A DNA stretch of 64,000 nt. Source: Actinomycetes bacterium. Its GTDB lineage: Bacteria; Actinomycetota; Actinomycetes; Nanopelagicales; Nanopelagicaceae. Under the pieces are notes generated by a model. That model did no database searches, was not told the DNA's origin, and worked only from the letters and a program-made list of their open reading frames with translations. The stretch is taken from the NCBI GenBank assembly GCA_025354785.1, contig JANXME010000326.1, positions 1,506-65,505 on the forward strand, in the 5' to 3' direction. The position numbers were made by a program, and so were the translations under genes. Below are positions 30,916 to 64,000 of this stretch, one piece after another. How positions within the stretch are numbered: the stretch's first letter is position 1; each line of letters starts with the position of its first letter.

Positions 30916-30955
30916 CAGATGCGATCCTGACTACAACTTATATAAAAAATATTAT

Positions 30956-31028
30956 TGAGAATGACAGGAGTTGAACCCGCGTCTACTAAGTCGATACTTT
31001 AGTCGCTCTACCGTTGAGCTACATTCCC
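30956..31028 (-). tRNA. tRNA-like gene with 9-nt anticodon loop (isotype undetermined)
   Basis: GGGAATG TA GCTC AACGGTA GAGC G ACTAA AGTATCGAC TTAGT AGAC GCGGG TTCAACT CCTGT CATTCTC A. Acceptor, D and T arms fold normally; the loop does not fit a 7-nt U33 pattern. Confidence 0.5.
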
Positions 31029-31063
31029 ATTTATTGCCTAATTAAGACCTTTTGACGTGTCAC

Positions 31064-40824: not shown

Positions 40825-40896
40825 TGGTGGGGAGTCCCGGTCGTGAGACGGGATCCTTGGCCGTAAGGCCGCCGTTCTACTTTGAACTAACTCCCC
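40825..40896 (-). ncRNA. 68-nt tRNA-like small RNA, paralogue A, with encoded ACCA tail
   Basis: GGGGAGT TA GTTC AAAGTA GAAC G GC GGCC TTAC GGCC AAG GA TCCCG TCTCACGAC CGGGA CTCCCC ACCA. Central tetraloop hairpin instead of an anticodon loop; 9-nt loop in the T position. Confidence 0.45.
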
Positions 40897-50076: not shown

Positions 50077-50330
50077 TCTTCAGAACATATAGGGGTGGGC
50101 CAGTAATCATTCGCGCCAGAATCATGTCTAAATGCGGTGGTAACGTCGCATATATTACATCCAGCATACATGCCTGAGAAATATATGGTTGGCTCCACTA
50201 GCATGCTTTCTGATTTATACGGATCGCGATACTCCGCTTTCGGCTGGTTAAATACCCCTGGGTGCTTTGTGTTGAAATCCATCAGTGTCCGCCACAATTG
50301 GTTCTGCGCCATCGAAAAAAACCTCCACAC
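49947..50330 (-). CDS. hypothetical protein
   Basis: 127-aa ORF overlapping the Thg1-like 3' end; start uncertain (50312 or 50282). Confidence 0.35.
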   Translation of the reverse strand: MWRFFSMAQNQLWRTLMDFNTKHPGVFNQPKAEYRDPYKSESMLVEPTIYFSGMYAGCNICDVTTAFRHDSGANDYWPTPICSEECLGALLANQAESTPTLPEISCLESSVPDGTTTTTMVADILNV

Positions 50331-51117
50331 GATTCACAACACGTGCCAGCGGCGGCATATTAATTTGAGCCACAACATGGCGTTCAATCTCTAGATTGGG
50401 ATTTACGCGTGCTGCGTGTTTTGGCGGTAGTGCCTCCAATTCTTCTTGGGTAAATTTTCCAGTCATCTTAATACGGCGCACATATGCACCACGTTTGAAA
50501 AACGTCGGATAGTCAGACCAGTTCACACCCTTTTTATGGAGCATCTCGATCATCTCTGTCCGACCCTGGTTCGCCATTTCTAAATGGGAGTAATAGTGGC
50601 GTGTGGCCATAGATACACTATTTTTGGTGGCATCTTGCTCACGCCACAAAATGGCATTAACAGCTTCATCCTTGTTAGGCACATTCCAAACACGACAATC
50701 GAATGTCGGAAGAGATTCTGCCTTTTCTGGAATGTACATAGCCAAATTTTTGTTGAAAAAGGCGCTTGCTTGTGAAGCGAGATTGCTTACGATCTTTTGA
50801 ATTTTACCATCAAACCATACCTGTTCACGGAAATCATGCGCATATATCAGTAGACTGATCTCGTCGGATTGAGTGTAGCCCACCAACGCATTAGTTTCCT
50901 CTACTAGATGGATGGTGGTGTCGGCCATCAAACTTGACATACGGCGATCGTATGGACGTTTTAGTCCGCGAGTAAATTTACTAAAACTACGTCCATCTAG
51001 ACGGGCAATGAGCGGCAATAGAGGCATAAGTTTGCGACCAGCCTCAACCTGCTCGTAAGACTTCATCCTTATTGCCACATCTGTATTGTCTTTGCTCATA
51101 AATTTAATTATTTCCAT
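50248..51117 (-). CDS. Thg1-like protein (tRNA-His guanylyltransferase family, 3'-5' nucleotidyltransferase)
   Basis: LIARLDGRSFSKFTRGLKRPYDRRM and VGYTQSDEISLLI match the Thg1/TLP palm-domain carboxylate motifs. Confidence 0.8.
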   Translation of the reverse strand: MEIIKFMSKDNTDVAIRMKSYEQVEAGRKLMPLLPLIARLDGRSFSKFTRGLKRPYDRRMSSLMADTTIHLVEETNALVGYTQSDEISLLIYAHDFREQVWFDGKIQKIVSNLASQASAFFNKNLAMYIPEKAESLPTFDCRVWNVPNKDEAVNAILWREQDATKNSVSMATRHYYSHLEMANQGRTEMIEMLHKKGVNWSDYPTFFKRGAYVRRIKMTGKFTQEELEALPPKHAARVNPNLEIERHVVAQINMPPLARVVNRVEVFFDGAEPIVADTDGFQHKAPRGI

Positions 51118-51966: not shown

Positions 51967-52279
51967 TCCGCATCTCCTTGATCAATTGTTCTCCACGTGT
52001 TCGATTTTTGCAATTTCGACACCAGAAACGGTCGGGTAGTGGTAGACCCCGTTCTCCCTTTGGGGCACGACTCCCACGTAATTCATGGCACCAAGTTGTA
52101 TCACCCTGAGCTAAACATTGCGCCGTATCTTTTAACAGTTTGAATAATTCTTCGCAACGTTCTAAATCAGCCGATGTCATCTGGGTGGCGGATGGCTCGG
52201 TAGGTTGGAAGAATTGGAACATTGTCATCACTGAGCCTTTGATATTTAAAATTAACAATCTTGCCAATAAGTTTCTCAT
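51959..52279 (-). CDS. hypothetical protein (start uncertain, possibly 52180)
   Basis: Track ORF overlaps the ligase 3' end by 113 nt; the internal ATG at 52180 gives a 14-nt overlap. Confidence 0.4.
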   Translation of the reverse strand: MRNLLARLLILNIKGSVMTMFQFFQPTEPSATQMTSADLERCEELFKLLKDTAQCLAQGDTTWCHELRGSRAPKGERGLPLPDRFWCRNCKNRTRGEQLIKEMRNG

Positions 52280-53471
52280 CGTCCCATAACTCTTGTCGCA
52301 ATGCTTTGGTCAGCCCTTCGCCAGTGCCCATGCCGAATACTGGACCAGTTGGCTTGCCTTTGACAAGTAAACGGCATTCAAGTTTGCCGAGAGATCCGAC
52401 CAACCAGCCTTCTCCCTCAACCTTGCCAACGATCATTGCTTCTGCGTCTTCAAATGGCTTGATTTTGGTGATGTCGGAAGTTTTCTTATTAGTTGGTGCC
52501 TTGTCCAGACGACGGATAATAGCTCCGTCACAACCAAGGGTAGTCACGAAATCACCAGCTTCTTTGTCAAGGAATTCTTGGGTTGGGTCGATCACCACCC
52601 GCGAGCTCACAATCCTTAATACACCATGACTGAACGAATGTGTACTATGAGACTGCATCATGTTTCTTAAATGTTGTAGCCGATCTTCATAAATAGTATG
52701 CGGGTCGTCATATTCATCACTGGCGGCACAATCAAACATCACATATACCAATAAACCTTTTTCCGGTTCGCGACCATCATCCGCATGGAATAATTTCTGA
52801 ACCGCCTGGAAGTCCATGCGGCCATAACTGTCAAACACTACAACTTCACCATCAATCGTAGTGCCTGACTGCAGTTTGAGACGTGTGATTTCCGCCTTGA
52901 TCGACTGAAAGCCTTTCCATTCTTTGCCAGTCCTGGATAAAAGAGTGACTGCGCCGCCTTCACCAATGCGAGCGATCGTACGTCCTCCATCCATTTTGGG
53001 CTGTAATGCCCATCGGCCCTTAAGAGATTTAAGCTCTTTAAAAGGCTTGGCGAGCGGAATCGAAAATAGAGCAATCGTGCCCGGCATAACCTTGTTTACA
53101 TCCTTGGCGCCGACGCTCAGGCGCAGATCTTGCTTGATAATACGCTCGGTCCACTTCACTTCTACCGAACTACACAATCCGAGAAAGGAAGCGATGGCAC
53201 TTTTAGCCGCATTACCAGTCAGCGTACGATCCGACAAGGGGACGAGCAAATGTTCTTCCAAATATTTGAACCAATCGTCCTCATCCATGGAAGCTACCTG
53301 GGCCGGTGCTGGCGATGGTACCTGCTTAATACCAAAGGTGATCGCTGGAGAAAGAGCATAGTTCAACAACTTACGCATCTCGGGTGAATCACCCTTTTTC
53401 ATCGCTTCAAGACGCGCATTACCCAACGGAGCGGCCTCAAATTTTTCTAGCTGTTTGACTAATTCATTCAT
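52167..53471 (-). CDS. ATP-dependent DNA ligase
   Basis: Motif I KMDGGR, III DGEVVVFD, IV DGAIIRR, V ITKIKP. ATG 53471 forms an ATGA overlap with the upstream stop. Confidence 0.85.
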   Translation of the reverse strand: MNELVKQLEKFEAAPLGNARLEAMKKGDSPEMRKLLNYALSPAITFGIKQVPSPAPAQVASMDEDDWFKYLEEHLLVPLSDRTLTGNAAKSAIASFLGLCSSVEVKWTERIIKQDLRLSVGAKDVNKVMPGTIALFSIPLAKPFKELKSLKGRWALQPKMDGGRTIARIGEGGAVTLLSRTGKEWKGFQSIKAEITRLKLQSGTTIDGEVVVFDSYGRMDFQAVQKLFHADDGREPEKGLLVYVMFDCAASDEYDDPHTIYEDRLQHLRNMMQSHSTHSFSHGVLRIVSSRVVIDPTQEFLDKEAGDFVTTLGCDGAIIRRLDKAPTNKKTSDITKIKPFEDAEAMIVGKVEGEGWLVGSLGKLECRLLVKGKPTGPVFGMGTGEGLTKALRQELWDDEKLIGKIVNFKYQRLSDDNVPILPTYRAIRHPDDIG

Positions 53472-53896
53472 AATTCTCCAGATTGGGGACAATCCACTAC
53501 ATGTCCGCACAAAGCGGCTCGATCTTCCCATCTCCAATTTCTCGTAAGATGGTCACATTCACAAACTAACTTAGTTGGCTTAGTTGCGCCATCGGCATAC
53601 ACTATATGACATTCATCGCTTAATACGTAGTACATAACTGCCTTCTGGCGATAGTGGTCGATCGTTATTTGCACGATTTGTGCCATGATATCGTCGGCAC
53701 ACATAATTCTAACTGGAATTACCCTTTCTAAGAAAGTTTCTCCTTCATGTTCCCAAACACCCTTTCCAGGAGTAAAGATGGTAAGTCCACCCGTAAGCTT
53801 TTGCACTTTAGCGTCCCAGTTCTTATGATGTTTCGTGCGAATGGGCTTGATTGTGTCGCCATACATCGTTGGCACTAATATCTCATAAAGCTTCAT
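53468..53896 (-). CDS. hypothetical protein
   Basis: MKLYEILVPT start in an ATGA overlap; C-terminal Cys/His cluster. Confidence 0.5.
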   Translation of the reverse strand: MKLYEILVPTMYGDTIKPIRTKHHKNWDAKVQKLTGGLTIFTPGKGVWEHEGETFLERVIPVRIMCADDIMAQIVQITIDHYRQKAVMYYVLSDECHIVYADGATKPTKLVCECDHLTRNWRWEDRAALCGHVVDCPQSGEL

Positions 53897-60062: not shown

Positions 60063-60316
60063 TTAAGCCTCTTAAGCACGATTCGCCGCATTGTAACAAA
60101 CAACACTGCAATCGCAATGCCACCGGGTAGTAATATAAGACCGACCAATACTATCGTTTCGGTCTTATTCGGCTTCGGTCCGAATATTACGGTTGAGGCT
60201 CGCTTTGAAAAGCTTAACAGTGCGATGCCCAATTGCGCTGTGTACATCCTTGCCTTCAACAAGTTCGCCTTTACCTTCTCTGAGCACATCTTCCACCATT
60301 GCACTAATAATGTCAC
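60059..60316 (-). CDS. possible small membrane protein (start unclear)
   Basis: C-terminal TM IVLVGLILLPGGIAIAVLFV; the N-terminal part overlaps the Rnl2 3' end in another frame. Confidence 0.3.
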   Translation of the reverse strand: MTLLVQWWKMCSEKVKANLLKARMYTAQLGIALLSFSKRASTVIFGPKPNKTETIVLVGLILLPGGIAIAVLFVTMRRIVLKRLK

Positions 60317-61121
60317 GCATAGAATTGATAGTACGCTTCTCTTCGGGCATCTTATCTAACACGTGCTGCAAACGAACATCGGTCACCCATTCGTCGGCGA
60401 TTGCTTTAGCATTGTCGAGTACAGCTAGTTTCGCCGGATCGACAACTTTGCGCACACTCGTTGTCTCGCGCCACTCGGGGCGCTTGTGTTTTGCAATCAC
60501 CCGGTCCCCGTTGTTCGCGCGCAACTCTATTAGCGGTCTGGCGACGACGCCTTCGGCGATCTTGTCCGCGCCACACCCATTCCGGATTGCCTGTGTGGAG
60601 AAAGCGTCTCGTTGCGCATCCAATGCCTCAACGGTAGCAGGAATACGAACATAGTGCACAAAGTCAAATCCTAGATCTAGAGCAACCTTCTCGGCCTTAG
60701 GTACACTGAGCCACAAGTTGCCAATTTTTACGTCGAAGGCAACAAACTTGAGCTCTTTCCCGTAGGTATTAGACATACCTTGACATTTGCCACCATATGC
60801 TTCGCCAAAGACAATGACCTTATCCATGCCCAATCTAGTGAAGGCTTCAGACAACTTATCCTTGTCAAATAAGCTAACAAATTTTTCGTATTTCTCCCCA
60901 CCAGAGAAAAATCCGACGCCCACTTGAGGCTTCCCATCACACCCCTCGCATGGTAGCCCTAGATTTTGCGCACTGCCTCCACCACCGCCACATTCGGCAC
61001 AGGGAGTGAGTCGGAAAGATACATGGGCGCTCGTGCCATGAATCTTTTCCATGGCATAACACTCCTTGAAAAGGAGTATTTCTTGGTTCTTGTACAGGTT
61101 CTCTATATGTAAGTATCCCAT
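60165..61121 (-). CDS. ATP-dependent RNA ligase, Rnl2-like
   Basis: Motif I EKIHGTS, FGEAYGGKCQG, EGVVARP, KHKRPEW. ATG 61121 lies directly after the upstream stop. Confidence 0.8.
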   Translation of the reverse strand: MGYLHIENLYKNQEILLFKECYAMEKIHGTSAHVSFRLTPCAECGGGGGSAQNLGLPCEGCDGKPQVGVGFFSGGEKYEKFVSLFDKDKLSEAFTRLGMDKVIVFGEAYGGKCQGMSNTYGKELKFVAFDVKIGNLWLSVPKAEKVALDLGFDFVHYVRIPATVEALDAQRDAFSTQAIRNGCGADKIAEGVVARPLIELRANNGDRVIAKHKRPEWRETTSVRKVVDPAKLAVLDNAKAIADEWVTDVRLQHVLDKMPEEKRTINSMRDIISAMVEDVLREGKGELVEGKDVHSAIGHRTVKLFKASLNRNIRTEAE

Positions 61122-61123
61122 TA

Positions 61124-61600
61124 TCAACTCACGTTTGTAACTGCGTATAGGGGGTATGTTCCCCGAACAAACACACTGCTTAAAACTTCTGGAGCACGAG
61201 ATACTGCGAAACATCGTTTAAGATCAATGTCATCATAATTCAAGCTCCATCCGGCATCTTCTAGCTCATCTCTTAGGCTGCCCATGCTATCATAAGTCGC
61301 TTGTAGTATAGCTGCGATGCCGTCTATTATGTCGTTTTCGACATGAACATGAAGCTCGTCAAGCTTGACACCACATTCTGGGCAAAATTTACACTGCGTC
61401 TTAATCGCACCATCAGCCTTACAGTCTCCTAGATGCCCGTCGTCTTCGTCAATATCTTGACCAAATACCCTAGCGAGGCTCTGCAGTGCATCTAGCACAG
61501 AGTCAAATCCTTTAATGTGGCTAATAACCATGCAGGACATGCTCTGGTCCTCTGCATACCCTTGATAGAGCCATAGTGTTTTGACCGGCTTTTTCTTCAT
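61124..61600 (-). CDS. hypothetical protein
   Basis: MKKKPVKTLW start with AGGAG SD; CKFCPEC ribbon. Confidence 0.5.
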   Translation of the reverse strand: MKKKPVKTLWLYQGYAEDQSMSCMVISHIKGFDSVLDALQSLARVFGQDIDEDDGHLGDCKADGAIKTQCKFCPECGVKLDELHVHVENDIIDGIAAILQATYDSMGSLRDELEDAGWSLNYDDIDLKRCFAVSRAPEVLSSVFVRGTYPLYAVTNVS

Positions 61601-61872
61601 AGTTGCTCCTAAAATTTTGCACCCCATATTAGCCAATACTAATATGATTAGATGTGTGGGTCCGTAACTGGACTAGGACCCCATCTCCACGAATGATCGT
61701 CGCAGGCCGATATATCCACACCAGATTCAACCCTGGCGTTTGTACTATACCACCAACCGGACCTTAACTAGTCTAACCGGCTGAAGTGATGTACTGCGCA
61801 AATCCGAATAGTGGTTCGACGCAGCGTTGTGTCTCTTCCCCATAGGTGCATTCTGGGATCGGGGACGGTTTC
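61601..61872 (-). ncRNA. candidate structured non-coding RNA region 2 (class unknown; strand inferred)
   Basis: 272-nt gap in a tightly packed genome; G+C-rich. Hairpins CCAG-GGTTGAAT-CTGG, GGGTCC..GGACCC, CTGCG..CGCAG. Only a poor 72-aa ORF overlaps it. Confidence 0.4.
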
Positions 61873-62424
61873 TTACAACAACTGCTTCGCGAGTTCGTAT
61901 AAAACAATATTTCCCGCTTGTGAAGTATTCAAACAAAATCCAACTCCCGGCATTGGAATGCAAACAATCATGTCTGACACATGAAGGATTTCCTCTGGGA
62001 CGCCGGTAGTTTCGTGACCAAGCACCAACATAATCTCCTTGCCCCTCTCTACCCTTAGCTCCGACAATGGGATTGCTCGCTCATCTAACTCTAACGAAAT
62101 AAGTGGAATGTTTTTTGCTAGCGTATATTCGAGAAAAGAGCTTGGGTTGGAATGTTGCCTGATATTAATCAGGCGGTTAAGACCACCAGATAGACTAACC
62201 ATATCTCGATAGCTGGGTGCGGCGCCAATGATGTGCAGATCCATTGCTCCGAAACAAGCCATCGCACGGATGATAAACCCAATATTGCCATCACACCGAA
62301 AATTTATAGTAGCAACGGATATGGGGATGGTCTTGGCGCCAAGAGCCTTAGCCATATGTCGCTCAGCGCGAGTTTTTCTCTGGAGAAGAGGCGAGAATAC
62401 ATTCCCACTCTGTAAGACCTGCAT
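61873..62424 (-). CDS. SpoU/TrmH-family RNA 2'-O-methyltransferase
   Basis: NIGFIIRAMACFGA, MLVLGHETTGVPEEIL, CIPMPGVGFCLNTSQAGNIVLYE. GGAGG SD before ATG 62424 (alternatives 62439, 62355). Confidence 0.85.
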   Translation of the reverse strand: MQVLQSGNVFSPLLQRKTRAERHMAKALGAKTIPISVATINFRCDGNIGFIIRAMACFGAMDLHIIGAAPSYRDMVSLSGGLNRLINIRQHSNPSSFLEYTLAKNIPLISLELDERAIPLSELRVERGKEIMLVLGHETTGVPEEILHVSDMIVCIPMPGVGFCLNTSQAGNIVLYELAKQLL

Positions 62425-62677
62425 ATGAATTACCTCCATCAGCTAATTTACGGTACAATTGCTGCACCTCAATGACCCATGGCTCAACAAAAGCCATGTA
62501 ATAAGGTGGCCAATCAGGTTCTTTCGGCACCCACACCCTAATACCAGCCTCTCTGAGTGTTAGCACCTTGTCCATGCGCAAATAACCTAGCGTAACCATC
62601 CCCGGTGGACCTTGATGCAATTTTGCCTCCGATCTTGCGAAATCAGGATGCAGTGGATCGTGCAAAAATCGTGCCAT
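62363..62677 (-). CDS. member of the paralogue family (helix module, no zinc finger)
   Basis: FVEPWVIEVQQLYRKLADGGNSYAGLTEWE. MARFLHD start at 62677; the track start reads into tRNA-Lys. Confidence 0.45.
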   Translation of the reverse strand: MARFLHDPLHPDFARSEAKLHQGPPGMVTLGYLRMDKVLTLREAGIRVWVPKEPDWPPYYMAFVEPWVIEVQQLYRKLADGGNSYAGLTEWECILASSPEKNSR

Positions 62678-62679
62678 AA

Positions 62680-62753
62680 TGGGATTGGTGAGACTTGAAC
62701 TCACGACCTTGCGCTTAAAAGGCGCTTGCTCTAACCAACTAAGCTACAACCCC
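62680..62753 (-). tRNA. tRNA-Lys (UUU)
   Basis: GGGGTTG TA GCTT AGTTGGTTA GAGC A AGCGC CTTTTAA GCGCA AGGTC GTGAG TTCAAGT CTCAC CAATCCC A. Confidence 0.85.
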
Positions 62754-62775
62754 AAAACACCTAAATCATATTAAG

Positions 62776-62848
62776 TTGCACGTATCGGATTTGAACCAAT
62801 GTTTCCACTCTGTACGAATGGTATCCTAGACCTCTAGATGAACGTGAA
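62776..62848 (-). tRNA. tRNA-like gene, UAC (Val) anticodon position but G at position 33
   Basis: TTCACGT TC ATC TAGAGGTCTAG GAT A CCATT CGTACAG AGTGG AAAC ATTGG TTCAAAT CCGAT ACGTGCA A. 3-bp D stem, one acceptor mismatch. Confidence 0.55.
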
Positions 62849-62857
62849 CTTCTCTAT

Positions 62858-62895
62858 AGATGGGTACTATTCGAATCATAGTTAGTATCCCATCT
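62858..62895. repeat. long imperfect hairpin (AGATGGG..CCCATCT) around a TTCGAA core
   Basis: AGATGGGTACTATTCGAATCATAGTTAGTATCCCATCT. The AGATGGG word also occurs beside the tRNA fragment at 40771. Confidence 0.5.
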
Positions 62896-62907
62896 GTATT
62901 GCGAGAA

Positions 62908-62988
62908 TGGAAGTTGCAGGAATCGAACCTGCTTGTATTTCTACGTCCGATTTACAGTCGGGTGTCAAGTCCGTAAGACGGAACTTCC
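62908..62988 (-). tRNA. tRNA-Tyr (GUA), type II
   Basis: GGAAGTT CC GTC TTACGGACTT GAC A CCCGA CTGTAAA TCGGA CGTAGAAATACAA GCAGG TTCGATT CCTGC AACTTCC A. Confidence 0.85.
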
Positions 62989-63281
62989 GTAAATACTGCG
63001 CCCCAAACACCACCTCAACACCTCAAACGGTTGGTCAGTCTTATCCATGCGCCGGCCAACAGACACATGGGCTCGTGACTCTGTGGGTTTATAACGTGGC
63101 AGGTGCCACACTTAACAGTTTGTCACTATTTAGTACTCGTCTCGGCGTCTCAACCCGTCCGGATTCAACCCCGGACTAGCCACCTCTTCACTGGATGGCC
63201 CCAACTCCCCTGCGCAGTACCAGGGATTCGGTTCAAGTGTTATGTAGCTAGCGGAGGGCCGGTGCCCAGAGGCAATCGCAT
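62989..63281 (-). ncRNA. candidate structured non-coding RNA region 1 (class unknown)
   Basis: 293 nt between a CDS stop and tRNA-Tyr; about 56 percent G+C by hand count over 63001-63280. Helices GTCCGG-GGTTGAAT-CCGGAC, GCCATC..GGTGGC (G-U only on minus strand), GTGGC-ACCT-GCCAC, CCCTG..CAGGG, CCATG..CATGG. Terminal pairing CGCCCCAA/TTGGGGCG. Confidence 0.45.
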
Positions 63282-63653
63282 TTAATACTTGGGGCGGGTA
63301 GTGCCAACCGGTATGGTCAGATCCAGCGCTATGACTCTATCCGCAAATTGAAGATAGGACAATATTGATGCATCATCCATAAGCCGCAGATCACCAGCGG
63401 TAGATGATACGTTATCCAGATATGTTACATTAATTTGAAACAATCTGAGCGCTATTTCAATGCGATCAATCATAAACGTACACTCCAATTTAACCAAGGC
63501 AGCAACGATGGGAGTGGCTCCTGTACCCCACATTCGCGTGTAATCCTGCTGTACATCTACCTTCGCAGATTCAACTCTGCCACGTGAGGTCCCTCTCCCG
63601 AGCGTGTACACCCGGATCAGCCATGGCGCCATATGCGTGGTGACGGTCTGCAA
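63282..63653 (-). CDS. hypothetical protein
   Basis: 123-aa co-directional ORF. Confidence 0.5.
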   Translation of the reverse strand: MQTVTTHMAPWLIRVYTLGRGTSRGRVESAKVDVQQDYTRMWGTGATPIVAALVKLECTFMIDRIEIALRLFQINVTYLDNVSSTAGDLRLMDDASILSYLQFADRVIALDLTIPVGTTRPKY

Positions 63654-63731
63654 CTAGCGTCACTCCTAGTATCTTGTGAAAACTGTAATGCGGATACAAT
63701 AACATAATTGCTACAGACTCGTCGGCCTGCT

Positions 63732-64000
63732 ACCATTTTGCATGAAAACTTGTTCAAAATGTAGCAGCAGTGCCGGCCCATTTAAGGGAAGTTGCAACTA
63801 TTGTCAAAAATGTCAGAGTGAGTATTTCAAAGCTCGTTATCAACTAAAATACAAAGACAGTGTTAAGGAACATAAAAAGCAGCACATTAGAACTATTGTT
63901 GCCTATATTCAACAAGTTAAAGATGGCAAACCATGTTTAGATTGTGGGAAGCTATACCCATATTATGTAATGGACTTCGACCATGTGCGAGGGGAGAAAA
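63732..64000 (+). CDS. HNH endonuclease, family B (3' part beyond the right window edge)
   Basis: Hand translation MKTCSKCSSSAGPFKGSCNYCQKCQSEYF..KPCLDCGKLYPYYVMDFDHVRGEK; paralogue of 57596..58051. Confidence 0.75.

What the first reader, a model, noticed from the sequence alone, without database searches (positions are those of the whole stretch)
62989..63281. 293-nt G+C-rich structured non-coding region immediately upstream of tRNA-Tyr
This is the longest gene-free stretch in a genome where genes usually overlap. Its G+C is about 56 percent by hand count, against about 35 percent in a spot count of line 33001. It contains many local helices, and its ends can pair (CGCCCCAA with TTGGGGCG). 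One helix needs a G-U pair that exists only on the minus strand, the strand of the flanking tRNAs. It contains a T-arm-like CCGG-GGTTGAAT-CCGG hairpin. I could not fit tmRNA (no tag ORF, no terminal T arm plus ACCA) or RNase P RNA (no P4 partner). The class is unknown; it may be a large tRNA-associated ncRNA.
Basis: seen in the sequence. Interest (0 to 1): 0.7.

Follow-up and report, generated by a model that had tools for sequence, protein, structure and literature searches.

The report
Conserved pseudoknotted RNA upstream of tRNA-Tyr
The gene-free stretch next to tRNA-Tyr encodes a roughly 290-base folded RNA, conserved with compensating base changes in about six related uncultured phages and matching no catalogued RNA family, so it is probably a new phage RNA of unknown job sitting inside a tRNA and RNA-repair gene cluster.

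Summary
Window 62989-63281 (minus strand) has stop codons in all six frames, is 55% G+C against 44.6% for the window, and directly abuts tRNA-Tyr(GUA). It matches no Rfam 15 family even at E<=10 and is not called by ARAGORN. Six distinct relatives were found through flanking RNA-ligase and SpoU homologues. All carry the element directly 5' of tRNA-Tyr or of a degenerate tRNA-like remnant. A covariance model built only from relatives finds the window copy at 73 bits (E 2.5e-21), the only significant hit in 64 kb. Helices show compensatory changes: 90.5% of cells paired against 76% shuffled and at most 48% slid. A new long-range pseudoknot joins the first hairpin's loop to a segment 5-16 nt before the tRNA: 36 of 36 cells are Watson-Crick and 3 of 6 pairs changed on both sides. 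The T-arm-like hairpin is real and conserved but not a canonical T arm. Two paralogous elements lie nearby. Best reading: a new structured RNA cut from the tRNA operon transcript by RNase P; its function is inferred only.

The parts
62989..63284 (-). X RNA: the whole structured non-coding element. It runs from the stop codon of the upstream 63-aa ORF to the base before tRNA-Tyr +1.
   Evidence: Stops in all six frames. nhmmer homology to L026 (E 2e-11), L008 and L010 and to L033, L034 and L035. No Rfam match.
63148..63282 (-). Conserved 5' core of X.
   Evidence: Model R1, built from relatives only, scores 73 bits (E 2.5e-21). It is the sole significant hit in the window.
63252..63261 (-). Mini hairpin CGG-CCCU-CCG that presents the invariant CCUCC. 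In clade B the motif reads ACCUCCUUA, like the 3' end of 16S rRNA.
   Evidence: Pairs at A2 columns 41-43/48-50; the outer pair covaries (AU, CG, UG).
63207..63226 (-). Hairpin Ha (UCCCUG / CAGGGG). Its loop carries the 5' strand of the pseudoknot.
   Evidence: 92.9% of cells paired; the closing pair occurs as CG, GC and UA. The same hairpin occurs in paralogues Y and Z.
63213..63219 (-). PK1 5' strand (UACUGCG), in the loop of Ha.
   Evidence: In every homologue the longest complement of the loop lies at the same 3'-terminal site. 36 of 36 cells are Watson-Crick, 3 of 6 pairs changed on both sides, and 0 of 500 shuffles reach this.
62994..63000 (-). PK1 3' strand (CGCAGUA). It ends 5 nt before the tRNA and is preceded by a conserved GGGG (63001-63004).
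63178..63200 (-). Hairpin Hb, variable in sequence.
   Evidence: 5 of 7 pairs changed on both sides across homologues.
63157..63176 (-). Hairpin Hc, the T-arm-like hairpin: 7-bp stem, invariant closing G-U, loop GUUGAA.
   Evidence: 100% of cells paired; two pairs covary (CG/UA/UG and UA/CG). The motif recurs in Y, Z and L008a with further compensatory changes.
63145..63149 (-). He 5' strand (GACGC) of a long-range helix.
   Evidence: Pairs with 63062-63066. 97% of cells paired and 3 of 5 pairs changed on both sides. In the window it competes with the local hairpin listed below.
63062..63066 (-). He 3' strand (GUGUC).
63045..63070 (-). Local 9-bp hairpin CCAUGUGUC-UGUUGGCC-GGCGCAUGG, seen only in the window and L033. 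It is an alternative to He.
   Evidence: Minimum-free-energy folds. L033 keeps it with an inserted G-U pair (read from the sequences).
62908..62988 (-). tRNA-Tyr(GUA), class II. It is the inferred RNase P site that creates the 3' end of X.
   Evidence: Rfam tRNA 37.2 bits. Homologous tRNA-Tyr is called by ARAGORN in L033 and L026. Cloverleaf folds.
63285..63473 (-). Upstream 63-aa ORF. The mechanical 123-aa ORF is too long. Its stop codon is the first conserved triplet of X.
   Evidence: Only an identical 63-aa protein exists in 1.8 billion representatives. A related C-terminus (ADRxxxxDL...RPK) lies upstream of X in L026.
61601..61872 (-). Y: a paralogous element after the SpoU stop. It has Ha at about 61858, an Hc-type hairpin at about 61721-61736, and loop-to-tail pairing UGCACC/GGUGCA near 61618-61623.
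   Evidence: Model R1 hits the clade B Y copies at 15-30 bits. The window copy gives only a weak Hc hit (9.9 bits).
63478..63670 (-). Z: a paralogous element with Ha, an Hc variant (GCAGAGUUGAAUCUGC) and a terminal stem GGAGUG/CACUCC. Its loop pairs with GUGUAC (63483-63478), between the Shine-Dalgarno sequence and the AUG of the 63-aa ORF.
   Evidence: 80% identity to L033 2664-2856, where it lies between two tRNA-Leu genes. Compensatory loop/tail change: GUACAC/GUGUAC against AUGCAC/GUGCAU.

Best explanation
X is a structured non-coding RNA of about 290 nt encoded on the minus strand. It belongs to a small, previously uncatalogued family found in one lineage of uncultured phages.

Fold. A conserved 5' core carries a mini hairpin that displays CCUCC, then three hairpins: Ha, Hb and the T-loop-like Hc. 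A more variable 3' domain follows. A long-range pseudoknot between the Ha loop and a segment just before the downstream tRNA closes the molecule.

Inferred production. X is transcribed as part of the tRNA/RNA-repair operon. Its 3' end is made when RNase P cuts at +1 of tRNA-Tyr. In one clade that tRNA has decayed into a non-decoding tRNA-like 'handle' that keeps only the acceptor and T arms. Where a tRNA lies upstream (L035), tRNA 3' processing would make the 5' end.

Proposed function (speculative). The released RNA acts in trans as a tRNA-elbow mimic or scaffold. It would bind a tRNA-recognising factor, either a host anticodon nuclease or the phage's own repair and modification enzymes.

Status of each step. 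Shown: homology, non-coding status, the helices, the pseudoknot, and the fixed position beside a tRNA. Inferred: co-transcription, RNase P release and stability. Speculative: the decoy or scaffold function.
For: - Non-coding in all homologues.
- No Rfam family at E<=10 in the window or at E<=1 in relatives.
- The model built from relatives only finds the window copy at 73 bits, E 2.5e-21.
- Seven helices: 90.5% of cells paired against 76.2% shuffled (0 of 500 shuffles) and at most 48% when slid; 19 pairs changed on both sides.
- Pseudoknot: 36 of 36 cells Watson-Crick, with 3 covarying pairs.
- Conserved G-U pairs fix the strand.
- X is always directly 5' of tRNA-Tyr or of a tRNA-like remnant. 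Those remnants keep the acceptor and T arms through compensatory changes but have aberrant anticodon loops.
- In L035, X is flanked by tRNA-Leu and the tRNA-like gene.
- No promoter or terminator signal above chance around X.
- Context: SpoU methylase, Rnl2-like RNA ligase and Thg1-like enzyme.
- Phage tRNA-Tyr and tRNA-Lys are known counter-measures to tRNA-cleaving defences (PMC11555353, PMC11464382).
Against: - There are no expression data, so ends and stability are unknown.
- Only six distinct sequences, in two clades, are available. R-scape-type statistics are not possible.
- The 3' half does not align reliably between clades.
- The folding energy is unremarkable (z -1.69).
- He competes with a local hairpin in the window.
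- A 4-5 bp helix UGCR/YGCA would use the same 3' strand as the pseudoknot and cannot be excluded as an alternative state.
- Hc is one nucleotide short of a canonical T loop, and the tRNA model does not match it.
- In paralogues Y and Z the pseudoknot's 3' strand lies close to the start of the next gene. This also fits a cis-acting role.
Confidence: 0.6

Rival explanations
1. X, like its paralogues Y and Z, acts in cis rather than as a free RNA. It would be a structured leader or spacer that controls the maturation, folding or stability of the RNA immediately downstream (tRNA-Tyr for X, an ORF for Y and Z). It could do this by presenting or hiding the RNase P site or the ribosome-binding site through the pseudoknot, or by blocking exonucleases.
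For: - The 3' strand of the pseudoknot always lies 5-16 nt before the downstream tRNA.
- In Z it lies between the Shine-Dalgarno sequence and the AUG of the 63-aa ORF. In Y it lies about 8 nt before the next Shine-Dalgarno sequence.
- Three copies sit at gene boundaries within 2 kb.
- An alternative pairing for the same 3' strand exists (UGCR/YGCA, read).
Against: - About 290 nt with at least seven conserved helices is large for a processing signal.
- In clade B the downstream tRNA has decayed while X is kept. That points to selection on X rather than on tRNA output.
- In clade B the tail of Y lies about 35 nt from the next Shine-Dalgarno sequence, so occlusion of the ribosome-binding site is not general.
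Confidence: 0.2
2. The shared Ha-Hb-Hc-pseudoknot module is a new self-cleaving or processing ribozyme. It would punctuate the polycistronic tRNA/mRNA transcript, by analogy with the HDV-like theta ribozymes that lie beside phage tRNAs.
For: - The fold is compact and pseudoknotted, with invariant unpaired nucleotides (GGGGAA, GUUGAA, CCUCC).
- Copies sit exactly at tRNA 3' ends: Z in L033, L008a, and X in L035.
- There is precedent for ribozymes within 5 nt of phage tRNAs (PMC10879173).
Against: - No match to any ribozyme family in Rfam.
- No HDV-like P1/P2 nesting could be drawn by hand.
- The window copy of X follows an ORF, not a tRNA.
- Nothing here tests catalysis.
Confidence: 0.07
3. The region is a graveyard of decayed tRNA genes with no present function. 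The T-arm-like hairpin would be a relic.
For: - The cluster does contain degenerate tRNA-like genes: 62787-62853, with a 5-nt anticodon loop, and the clade B remnants.
- Z shares its 3' end, CCACUCCCA, with tRNA-Leu(CAA).
- The G+C content is similar to that of the tRNAs.
Against: - The 5' core keeps 75% column identity in phages whose ligase and SpoU proteins are only 60-69% identical.
- Helices and a 200-nt-range pseudoknot are kept by compensatory changes. Neutral decay would not do this.
- No cloverleaf can be drawn, and the tRNA model gives no hit.
Confidence: 0.05
4. X is a very divergent member of a known large RNA family: tmRNA (standard or permuted), RNase P RNA, group I intron, Y RNA/YrlA, or ROOL/GOLLD.
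For: - It has tRNA-like elements and pseudoknots.
- A stop-codon-rich A/U stretch follows Hc and contains UAACCUG, which resembles the end of the E. coli tmRNA tag region. That resemblance is from memory only.
- A homing endonuclease gene lies nearby.
Against: - cmscan at E<=10 gives nothing in the window, and nothing at E<=1 in three relatives.
- ARAGORN finds no tmRNA.
- There is no conserved peptide frame before the stops (read).
- There are no P4-type conserved nucleotides.
- X lies between genes, not inside one, so there are no exons to join.
- ROOL and GOLLD are 2-3 times longer.
Confidence: 0.03
5. The conserved motif works at the DNA level, as a protein-binding site, a recombination site or an origin. 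Alternatively the region encodes a small protein.
For: - The GGGGTTGAATCC motif recurs three times on one strand.
- The window and L002 differ by a rearrangement close by.
Against: - Conserved G-U pairs would be A-C mismatches on the other strand.
- Compensatory changes keep pairing rather than sequence.
- Every frame has stops in every homologue.
Confidence: 0.02

Closest known systems
Phage T4 species 1 and species 2 stable RNAs (rnaC, rnaD)
   Same: They are encoded inside a phage tRNA cluster on the tRNA strand and directly abut a tRNA gene. rnaC carries a T-arm hairpin. A homing endonuclease gene sits within the cluster (segB) and an RNA ligase gene lies nearby. Their function is still unknown (my knowledge of the T4 literature).
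   Different: They are 139 and 119 nt, against about 290 nt. The T arm of rnaC is canonical (CCGGGUUCGAAUCCCGG) and 3'-terminal, whereas Hc is internal with a 6-nt loop. There is no sequence or model similarity: R1 finds nothing in the T4 locus.
HDV-like theta ribozymes next to phage tRNAs (PMC10879173)
   Same: They are structured, pseudoknotted RNA elements placed within a few nucleotides of phage tRNA genes, often tRNA-Leu, and are proposed to take part in tRNA end maturation.
   Different: Theta ribozymes are minimal elements (my recollection: about 50-70 nt) lying 3' of tRNAs with the HDV double-pseudoknot fold. X is about 290 nt, lies 5' of its tRNA, has no HDV-like nesting, and has no Rfam ribozyme hit. 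Catalysis is untested.
MALAT1/mascRNA-type 3'-end formation by RNase P (eukaryotic; analogy in mechanism only)
   Same: A non-decoding tRNA-like structure directly downstream of a long non-coding RNA serves as the RNase P site that makes its 3' end. In clade B, the tRNA-like remnant after X keeps only the acceptor and T arms.
   Different: It belongs to a different domain of life and there is no homology. RNase P cleavage has not been shown here. In the window the downstream gene is still a plausible working tRNA-Tyr.
tmRNA
   Same: A large pseudoknotted RNA with tRNA-like parts, sometimes encoded by phages.
   Different: X has no terminal acceptor/T-arm domain of its own, no tag reading frame, and no ARAGORN or Rfam detection.
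Bacterial Y RNA (YrlA) tRNA mimics (PMC4201824)
   Same: A non-coding RNA that contains a T-arm-like module, is linked to RNA repair genes, and is also found in phages.
   Different: There is no match to any Rfam model, Y RNA models included. YrlA has a canonical T loop and a Ro-binding stem (my recollection of the paper, which I did not read here). No Ro/TROVE protein was seen among the few window proteins scanned, but the window was not scanned exhaustively.
ROOL and GOLLD large RNAs
   Same: Large orphan structured RNAs, often in phages or prophages and often near tRNAs (my knowledge).
   Different: They are about 580 and 800 nt. There is no Rfam hit and the architecture is unrelated.

Membership tests
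tmRNA (standard or permuted) | Detected by ARAGORN or by the Rfam tmRNA models (RF00023 and the permuted forms) | tested here: not met
   ARAGORN finds no tmRNA in the window or the relatives. cmscan at E<=10 gives nothing in X. The only tmRNA signal is an 18-nt T-arm fragment of the tRNA-like gene in L008.
tmRNA (standard or permuted) | A tag-peptide reading frame with a conserved hydrophobic end before the stop codons | tested here: not met
   The frames leading into the stop-rich segment give unrelated peptides in the window, L033, L026 and L008b (read from the alignment).
tmRNA (standard or permuted) | Own acceptor stem plus T arm ending in (A)CCA | tested here: not met
   Hc is internal and is followed by (C/A)GGUUG, not by an acceptor strand. 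X has no CCA end.
RNase P RNA | Match to the Rfam RNase P models, or presence of the conserved P4/CR-I to CR-V nucleotides | tested here: not met
   No hit at E<=10. No ACAGAA...GGCUUA-type strand is present in any homologue (read).
Group I intron | Interrupts a gene, so that flanking exons reconstitute a tRNA or ORF | tested here: not met
   X lies between a complete ORF (stop at 63282-63284) and a complete tRNA-Tyr.
Group I intron | Match to Rfam Intron_gpI | tested here: not met
   No hit at E<=10.
Y RNA / YrlA | Match to the Rfam Y RNA models | tested here: not met
   No match to any Rfam model at E<=10.
Y RNA / YrlA | A Ro (TROVE) protein encoded nearby | tested here: inconclusive
   Sixteen window proteins were scanned and none has a TROVE domain. 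Most ORFs of the window were not scanned.
ROOL / GOLLD | Match to the Rfam models; length of about 580 or 800 nt | tested here: not met
   No hit at gathering score over the whole window, or at E<=10 locally. X is about 290 nt.
HDV-like / theta ribozyme | Nested double pseudoknot (P1, P1.1, P2, P3) with the cleavage site at its own 5' end | tested here: not met
   No Rfam HDV-type hit. A P1/P2 nesting could not be drawn by hand on X or Z. The manual check is weak.
HDV-like / theta ribozyme | Self-cleavage | not testable with these tools
   Needs an in vitro transcription and cleavage assay.
T4 rnaC/rnaD-type stable RNAs of tRNA clusters (a functional kind, not a sequence family) | Encoded within a phage tRNA cluster, on the tRNA strand, abutting a tRNA | tested here: met
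   X ends one base before tRNA-Tyr, and tRNA-Lys lies 230 nt further on. The T4 layout is shown.
T4 rnaC/rnaD-type stable RNAs of tRNA clusters (a functional kind, not a sequence family) | Sequence or structure homology to rnaC or rnaD | tested here: not met
   R1 finds nothing in the T4 locus L036. The motif scan finds nothing either.
T4 rnaC/rnaD-type stable RNAs of tRNA clusters (a functional kind, not a sequence family) | Accumulates as a discrete stable RNA processed from the tRNA precursor | not testable with these tools
   Needs RNA-seq or a Northern blot of infected cells.
tRNA (for the Hc hairpin as a T arm) | 5-bp stem, 7-nt loop UUCRANY, part of a cloverleaf | tested here: not met
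   Hc has a 7-bp stem closed by G-U and a 6-nt loop GUUGAA. The tRNA model gives no hit on it at E<=10.

The most novel reading that the evidence does not exclude
X, Y and Z are three paralogues of a new class of pseudoknotted phage RNA with an activity of its own. One possibility is a ribozyme or processing module that punctuates the tRNA/RNA-repair operon. Another is a tRNA- and 16S-3'-end-mimicking decoy: it has a T-loop-like hairpin plus an exposed CCUCC, which reads ACCUCCUUA in clade B. Such a decoy could neutralise tRNA- or rRNA-targeting host defence nucleases, with a degenerate tRNA kept solely as its RNase P release handle.
Probability: 0.25. Interest if true: 0.8.

Novelty: new variant of a known kind. 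Interest (0 to 1): 0.6.

Why it matters
Phage tRNA clusters are now understood as counter-defence modules. Phage tRNA-Tyr and tRNA-Lys rescue infection from retron Eco7/PtuAB and from PARIS (PMC11555353, PMC11464382). Yet the non-tRNA RNAs embedded in such clusters, known since the T4 species 1 and 2 RNAs, still have no function.

Here is a larger example supported by covariation, and it comes with useful features:
- a defined fold, including a long-range pseudoknot;
- two paralogues in the same operon;
- a natural experiment, in that one clade has let the neighbouring tRNA decay into a processing handle while keeping the RNA.

This gives concrete, mutable targets (PK1, the Hc loop, CCUCC) for asking what such RNAs do. 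If the module proves catalytic or acts as a decoy, it would add a new RNA class to phage-host conflict. If it is only a processing spacer, it still shows how phages organise the maturation of mixed tRNA/mRNA transcripts.

Tried and rejected
- **Rfam.** Searches at gathering score and at E<=10 found only tRNAs.
- **ARAGORN.** No tmRNA.
- **GenBank phages.** Searching with X plus its flanks matched only the tRNA-Lys. Searching with the L035 copy matched nothing.
- **IMG/VR scans.** The exact hairpin gave 0 hits. A degenerate hairpin gave 15 loci, all coding-sequence false positives. A three-block pattern gave 0 hits. An Ha-Hc pattern gave 2 false positives.
- **JGI metagenomes and GTDB genomes.** The three-block pattern gave 2 false positives in each.
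- **The 123-aa ORF as a search handle.** It has no homologues; only a 63-aa version is real.
- **More distant SpoU or ligase relatives.** L001, L027, L028, L037 and L038-L041 carry no X.
- **Thermodynamics.** Folding energy is uninformative (z -1.69 on the minus strand, -1.00 on the plus strand).
It is not conserved.
- **A closing helix UGCR/YGCA that I proposed.** It is compatible with the data but weaker than the pseudoknot that uses the same 3' strand.
- **A second pseudoknot, CAGGUUG/CAACCUG.** It is present in 5 of 7 sequences but shows no two-sided compensation, so it is not claimed.
- **HK022 put-type antiterminator.** Considered, but only the generic 'two stem-loops, about 70 nt' description could be compared (PMC9378689). 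No test was possible.
- **HDV-like fold.** It could not be drawn.
- **Alignment limits.** MAFFT could not keep the Ha register across loop-length variants. The pseudoknot was therefore counted on a synthetic concatenation of loop, A10 linker and 3' segment.
Full report
**What is at the coordinates**

On the minus strand, the strand of all tRNAs in the window, the gene order 5' to 3' is as follows.
- A 63-aa ORF at 63473-63285. The mechanical 123-aa ORF is an over-extension. In 1.8 billion representative proteins only an identical 63-aa protein was found, and a related C-terminus lies upstream of the element in L026.
- The 293-nt stretch at 63281-62989.
- A class II tRNA with anticodon GUA at 62988-62908 (Rfam tRNA 37.2 bits). 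ARAGORN misses it here but calls tRNA-Tyr(gta) at the homologous place in L033 and L026.
- A 153-nt spacer.
- tRNA-Lys(UUU) at 62754-62679.
- A 104-aa ORF.
- A SpoU-family methylase at 62439-61873.
- An Rnl2-like RNA ligase.

A Thg1-like enzyme and a DNA ligase lie further along the window. The neighbourhood is therefore a tRNA and RNA-repair module.

**Checking the observation**

The stretch has stops in all six frames. It is 55.3% G+C against 44.6% for the window, which puts it at the 97.6th percentile.

It is not demonstrably the longest gene-free stretch. A crude ORF map leaves gaps of 293-800 nt elsewhere.

The predicted folding energy is ordinary: -113.6 kcal/mol, z = -1.69 on the minus strand and z = -1.00 on the plus strand. 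Thermodynamics alone would not have singled this region out.

**Known families**

- cmscan against Rfam 15 finds only tRNAs in the window at gathering score.
- In 62750-63450 at E<=10 it finds only the tRNA-Tyr and one spurious plastid hit on the opposite strand of that tRNA.
- The same is true of three relatives at E<=1.
- ARAGORN finds no tmRNA anywhere.
- GenBank phages share only the tRNA-Lys.

**Relatives**

No homologue could be reached by DNA patterns in IMG/VR, JGI metagenomes or GTDB genomes; all matches were false positives.

Homologues of the flanking RNA ligase and SpoU proteins led to these contigs.
- L002 and L003 are identical to the window in X.
- L033 has SpoU at 84% identity.
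- L026 has the ligase at 69% identity.
- L035, L008/L034 and L010 have these proteins at 60-67% identity.

nhmmer aligns X to each of them: E 2e-11 to L026 and 1e-5 to 1e-9 to L008 and L010 with single sequences, and 1e-43 to 1e-90 with a profile.

More distant phages with the same enzymes lack X. These are L001, L027, L028, the 485-kb phage LR745208, and the marine phages L038-L041. The family is therefore confined, as far as these collections show, to one small lineage of uncultured phages.

In every member X lies directly 5' of a tRNA-type gene. That gene is tRNA-Tyr(GUA) in the window, L033 and L026 (clade A). It is a tRNA-like remnant in L035, L008/L034 and L010 (clade B). The profile alignment runs through X into that gene.

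**Independent test of membership**

A covariance model (R1) was built from the 5' core of five relatives only, with 24 base pairs. It was run without filters over all 64 kb.
- It finds 63148-63282 (minus strand) at 73 bits, E = 2.5e-21.
- All but one of the model's pairs form there.
- The next best hit scores 9.9 bits.

**Structure**

On a plain MAFFT alignment of seven homologues, RNAalifold and my own helix scan agree on these helices.
- A 3-bp mini hairpin presenting an invariant CCUCC.
- Hairpin Ha (UCCCNN/NNGGGG).
- Hairpin Hb.
- A long-range helix He, with two helices nested inside it.

Counted as one structure:
- 90.5% of cells pair, against 76.2% in shuffles (0 of 500 reach it) and 38-48% when partners are slid by 1-3 columns.
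- 19 of 39 pairs show a change on both sides, against 12.7 in shuffles (1 of 500) and 5-8 when slid.

Several conserved G-U pairs would be A-C mismatches on the other strand, which fixes the minus strand. Hc resembles a T arm only in sequence (GGUUGAAUCC against GGUUCGAAUCC). Its loop is one base short and the tRNA model does not see it.

**A new pseudoknot**

In each of the six independent sequences, the longest Watson-Crick complement of the Ha loop anywhere downstream falls at the same homologous spot. That spot is a YGCRG segment 5-16 nt before the tRNA. The pairings are:

| Sequence | Ha loop strand | 3' segment |
|---|---|---|
| window | UACUGCGC | GCGCAGUA |
| L026 | UUCUGCAC | GUGCAGAA |
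| L035 | ACUGCA | UGCAGU |
| L008b | ACCGCA | UGCGGU |
| L010 | CCUGCA | UGCAGG |

I counted this on a synthetic concatenation of the loop and the 3' segment.
- All 36 cells are Watson-Crick.
- 3 of 6 pairs changed on both sides.
- 0 of 500 shuffles reach the covariation score or the paired fraction.
- Slid versions pair in 8-58% of cells.

The 5' arm of that helix lies in the last codons of the ORF and is absent from L033 and L026. A short helix UGCR/YGCA could use the same 3' strand and may be an alternative state.

The 3' half of X differs between clades. In the window and L033 a local 9-10 bp hairpin (63070-63045) competes with He. I leave that unresolved.

**The tRNA partner**

Clade A has good class II tRNA-Tyr cloverleaves. 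In clade B the gene at that position keeps an acceptor stem and a canonical T arm, with compensatory differences (GGAAGAU/AUCUUCC against GAAGGGU/ACCCUUC). Its anticodon loop, however, has 4 nt (L035) or 8 nt (L010). The Rfam tRNA model does not recognise the L008 and L010 copies. Those phages carry another tRNA-Tyr elsewhere.

So what is retained next to X is what RNase P needs, not what decoding needs. In L035, X is bounded by tRNA-Leu on its 5' side as well. No promoter or terminator signal above chance flanks X.

I infer co-transcription with the tRNAs and release of X by tRNA-processing enzymes. This is the way the T4 species 1 and 2 RNAs arise (T4 layout; the processing itself is my knowledge of the T4 literature). 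It also parallels how mascRNA defines the MALAT1 3' end.

**Paralogues**

The Ha-Hb-Hc module with a loop-to-tail pseudoknot recurs on the same strand.
- **Y** lies after the SpoU stop at 61872-61601. Its loop-to-tail pairing is UGCACC/GGUGCA. The clade B copies are hit by R1 at 15-30 bits.
- **Z** lies at 63670-63478 and is 80% identical to L033 2664-2856, where it sits between two tRNA-Leu genes. Its loop-to-tail pairing changes in a compensatory way, GUACAC/GUGUAC against AUGCAC/GUGCAU. In the window the 3' strand of that pairing lies between the Shine-Dalgarno sequence and the AUG of the 63-aa ORF.
- L008 and L034 hold a further copy after tRNA-Leu.

X looks like this module with a large domain inserted before the tail.

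**Interpretation**

Shown:
- a conserved, non-coding, strand-specific, pseudoknotted RNA structure;
- membership of an uncatalogued family;
- an obligatory position 5' of a tRNA-type gene.

Inferred:
- it is cut out of the operon transcript by RNase P and accumulates.

Speculative:
- it acts in trans as a tRNA-elbow-like decoy or scaffold in the contest over tRNAs. Phage tRNA-Tyr and tRNA-Lys are known to neutralise tRNA-cleaving defences (PMC11555353, PMC11464382, PMC10264068). The exposed CCUCC, which reads ACCUCCUUA in clade B, could also mimic the 16S 3' end.

The main rival is a cis-acting leader or processing element. It is favoured by the closeness of the pseudoknot tail to the next gene in X, Y and Z. 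A ribozyme reading, prompted by the theta ribozymes beside phage tRNAs (PMC10879173), is not excluded. Decayed tRNAs, a protein gene, a DNA site and a divergent known RNA are each disfavoured by specific tests.

**Verdict**

It is a new family within a known but poorly understood kind, the stable structured RNAs embedded in phage tRNA clusters.

Limits:
- only six distinct sequences;
- no expression data;
- an unresolved 3' domain;
- an unknown function.

Noticed in passing
window 61601-61872 (minus strand): Y is a 272-nt non-coding gap after the SpoU stop that holds a paralogue of X. It has Ha (UCCCA...UGGGGA), an Hc-type hairpin (CCAGGGUUGAAUCUGG) and loop-to-tail pairing UGCACC/GGUGCA about 8 nt before the next ORF's Shine-Dalgarno sequence. 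Clade B relatives have a shorter Y that overlaps the end of SpoU.
   Followed up: partly
window 63478-63670 (minus strand); L033 2664-2856: Z is a 190-nt element with the same module and a terminal stem GGAGUG/CACUCC. In L033 it fills the space between tRNA-Leu(CAA) and tRNA-Leu(UAG). In the window the 3' strand of its pseudoknot (63483-63478) lies between the Shine-Dalgarno sequence and the AUG of the 63-aa ORF. This suggests control of that ORF's translation.
   Followed up: partly
window 63517-64000 compared with L002 3380-3536: The window and L002 are 100% identical up to window position 63517 and then diverge. L002 has an intact tRNA-Leu(CAA) ending in CCACTCCCA. The window instead has Z, which ends in the same 9 bases, and beyond it an HNH endonuclease gene on the plus strand (63742 to the window end). 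This looks like a deletion or insertion by recombination between the two CCACTCCCA copies, or a homing event.
   Followed up: partly
window 62755-62907 (minus strand): The spacer between tRNA-Tyr and tRNA-Lys folds (z -2.0) into a long hairpin (about 62850-62905) plus a cloverleaf-like tRNA remnant (about 62787-62853). The remnant has a 5-bp acceptor stem, a canonical T arm and a 5-nt anticodon loop. Neither ARAGORN nor Rfam calls it.
   Followed up: partly
L035 4166-4257; L008 about 2758-2836; L010 2344-2421: The tRNA-like genes after X in clade B keep their acceptor and T arms but have 4-nt or 8-nt anticodon loops. They share the conserved string GCGGAAUAUG. They may be processing handles rather than tRNAs.
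   Followed up: partly
L008 2059-2430 and L034 2952-3322: A further, very divergent copy of the module (UCCGAG...CUCGGGA, GCGGGGUUGAAUCCGC) lies directly after tRNA-Leu(CAA) and before X. These phages therefore carry two such RNAs in tandem.
   Followed up: no
window 50248-51117, 52167-53537, 60165-61214, 61873-62439: Alongside 10 tRNA genes the phage carries a Thg1-like 3'-5' polymerase, an ATP-dependent DNA ligase, an Rnl2-like RNA ligase and a SpoU/TrmH-type methylase. This is a substantial tRNA repair and modification toolkit.
   Followed up: partly
L001 146-290, 311-437 and 1470-1543 (IMG/VR contig of 175 kb): A distant phage with a 37%-identical SpoU has tRNA genes with long internal insertions (127-145 nt in total). 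It also has a tRNA-shaped gene ending in ACCA with a non-standard T loop, and a 500-nt ORF-free gap between tRNAs.
   Followed up: no
L038 3666-3917 (and L039-L041): Marine phages with a 51%-identical SpoU have a 250-nt ORF-free gap between tRNA-Asn and tRNA-Gly, just upstream of SpoU. It has no similarity to X and was not examined further.
   Followed up: no
window 30955-31029 and 40828-40896: ARAGORN calls a tRNA-Asp with the unusual anticodon AUC. A tenth tRNA hit at 40828-40896 only just reaches the Rfam threshold (29.9 bits against 29) and ARAGORN does not call it.
   Followed up: no
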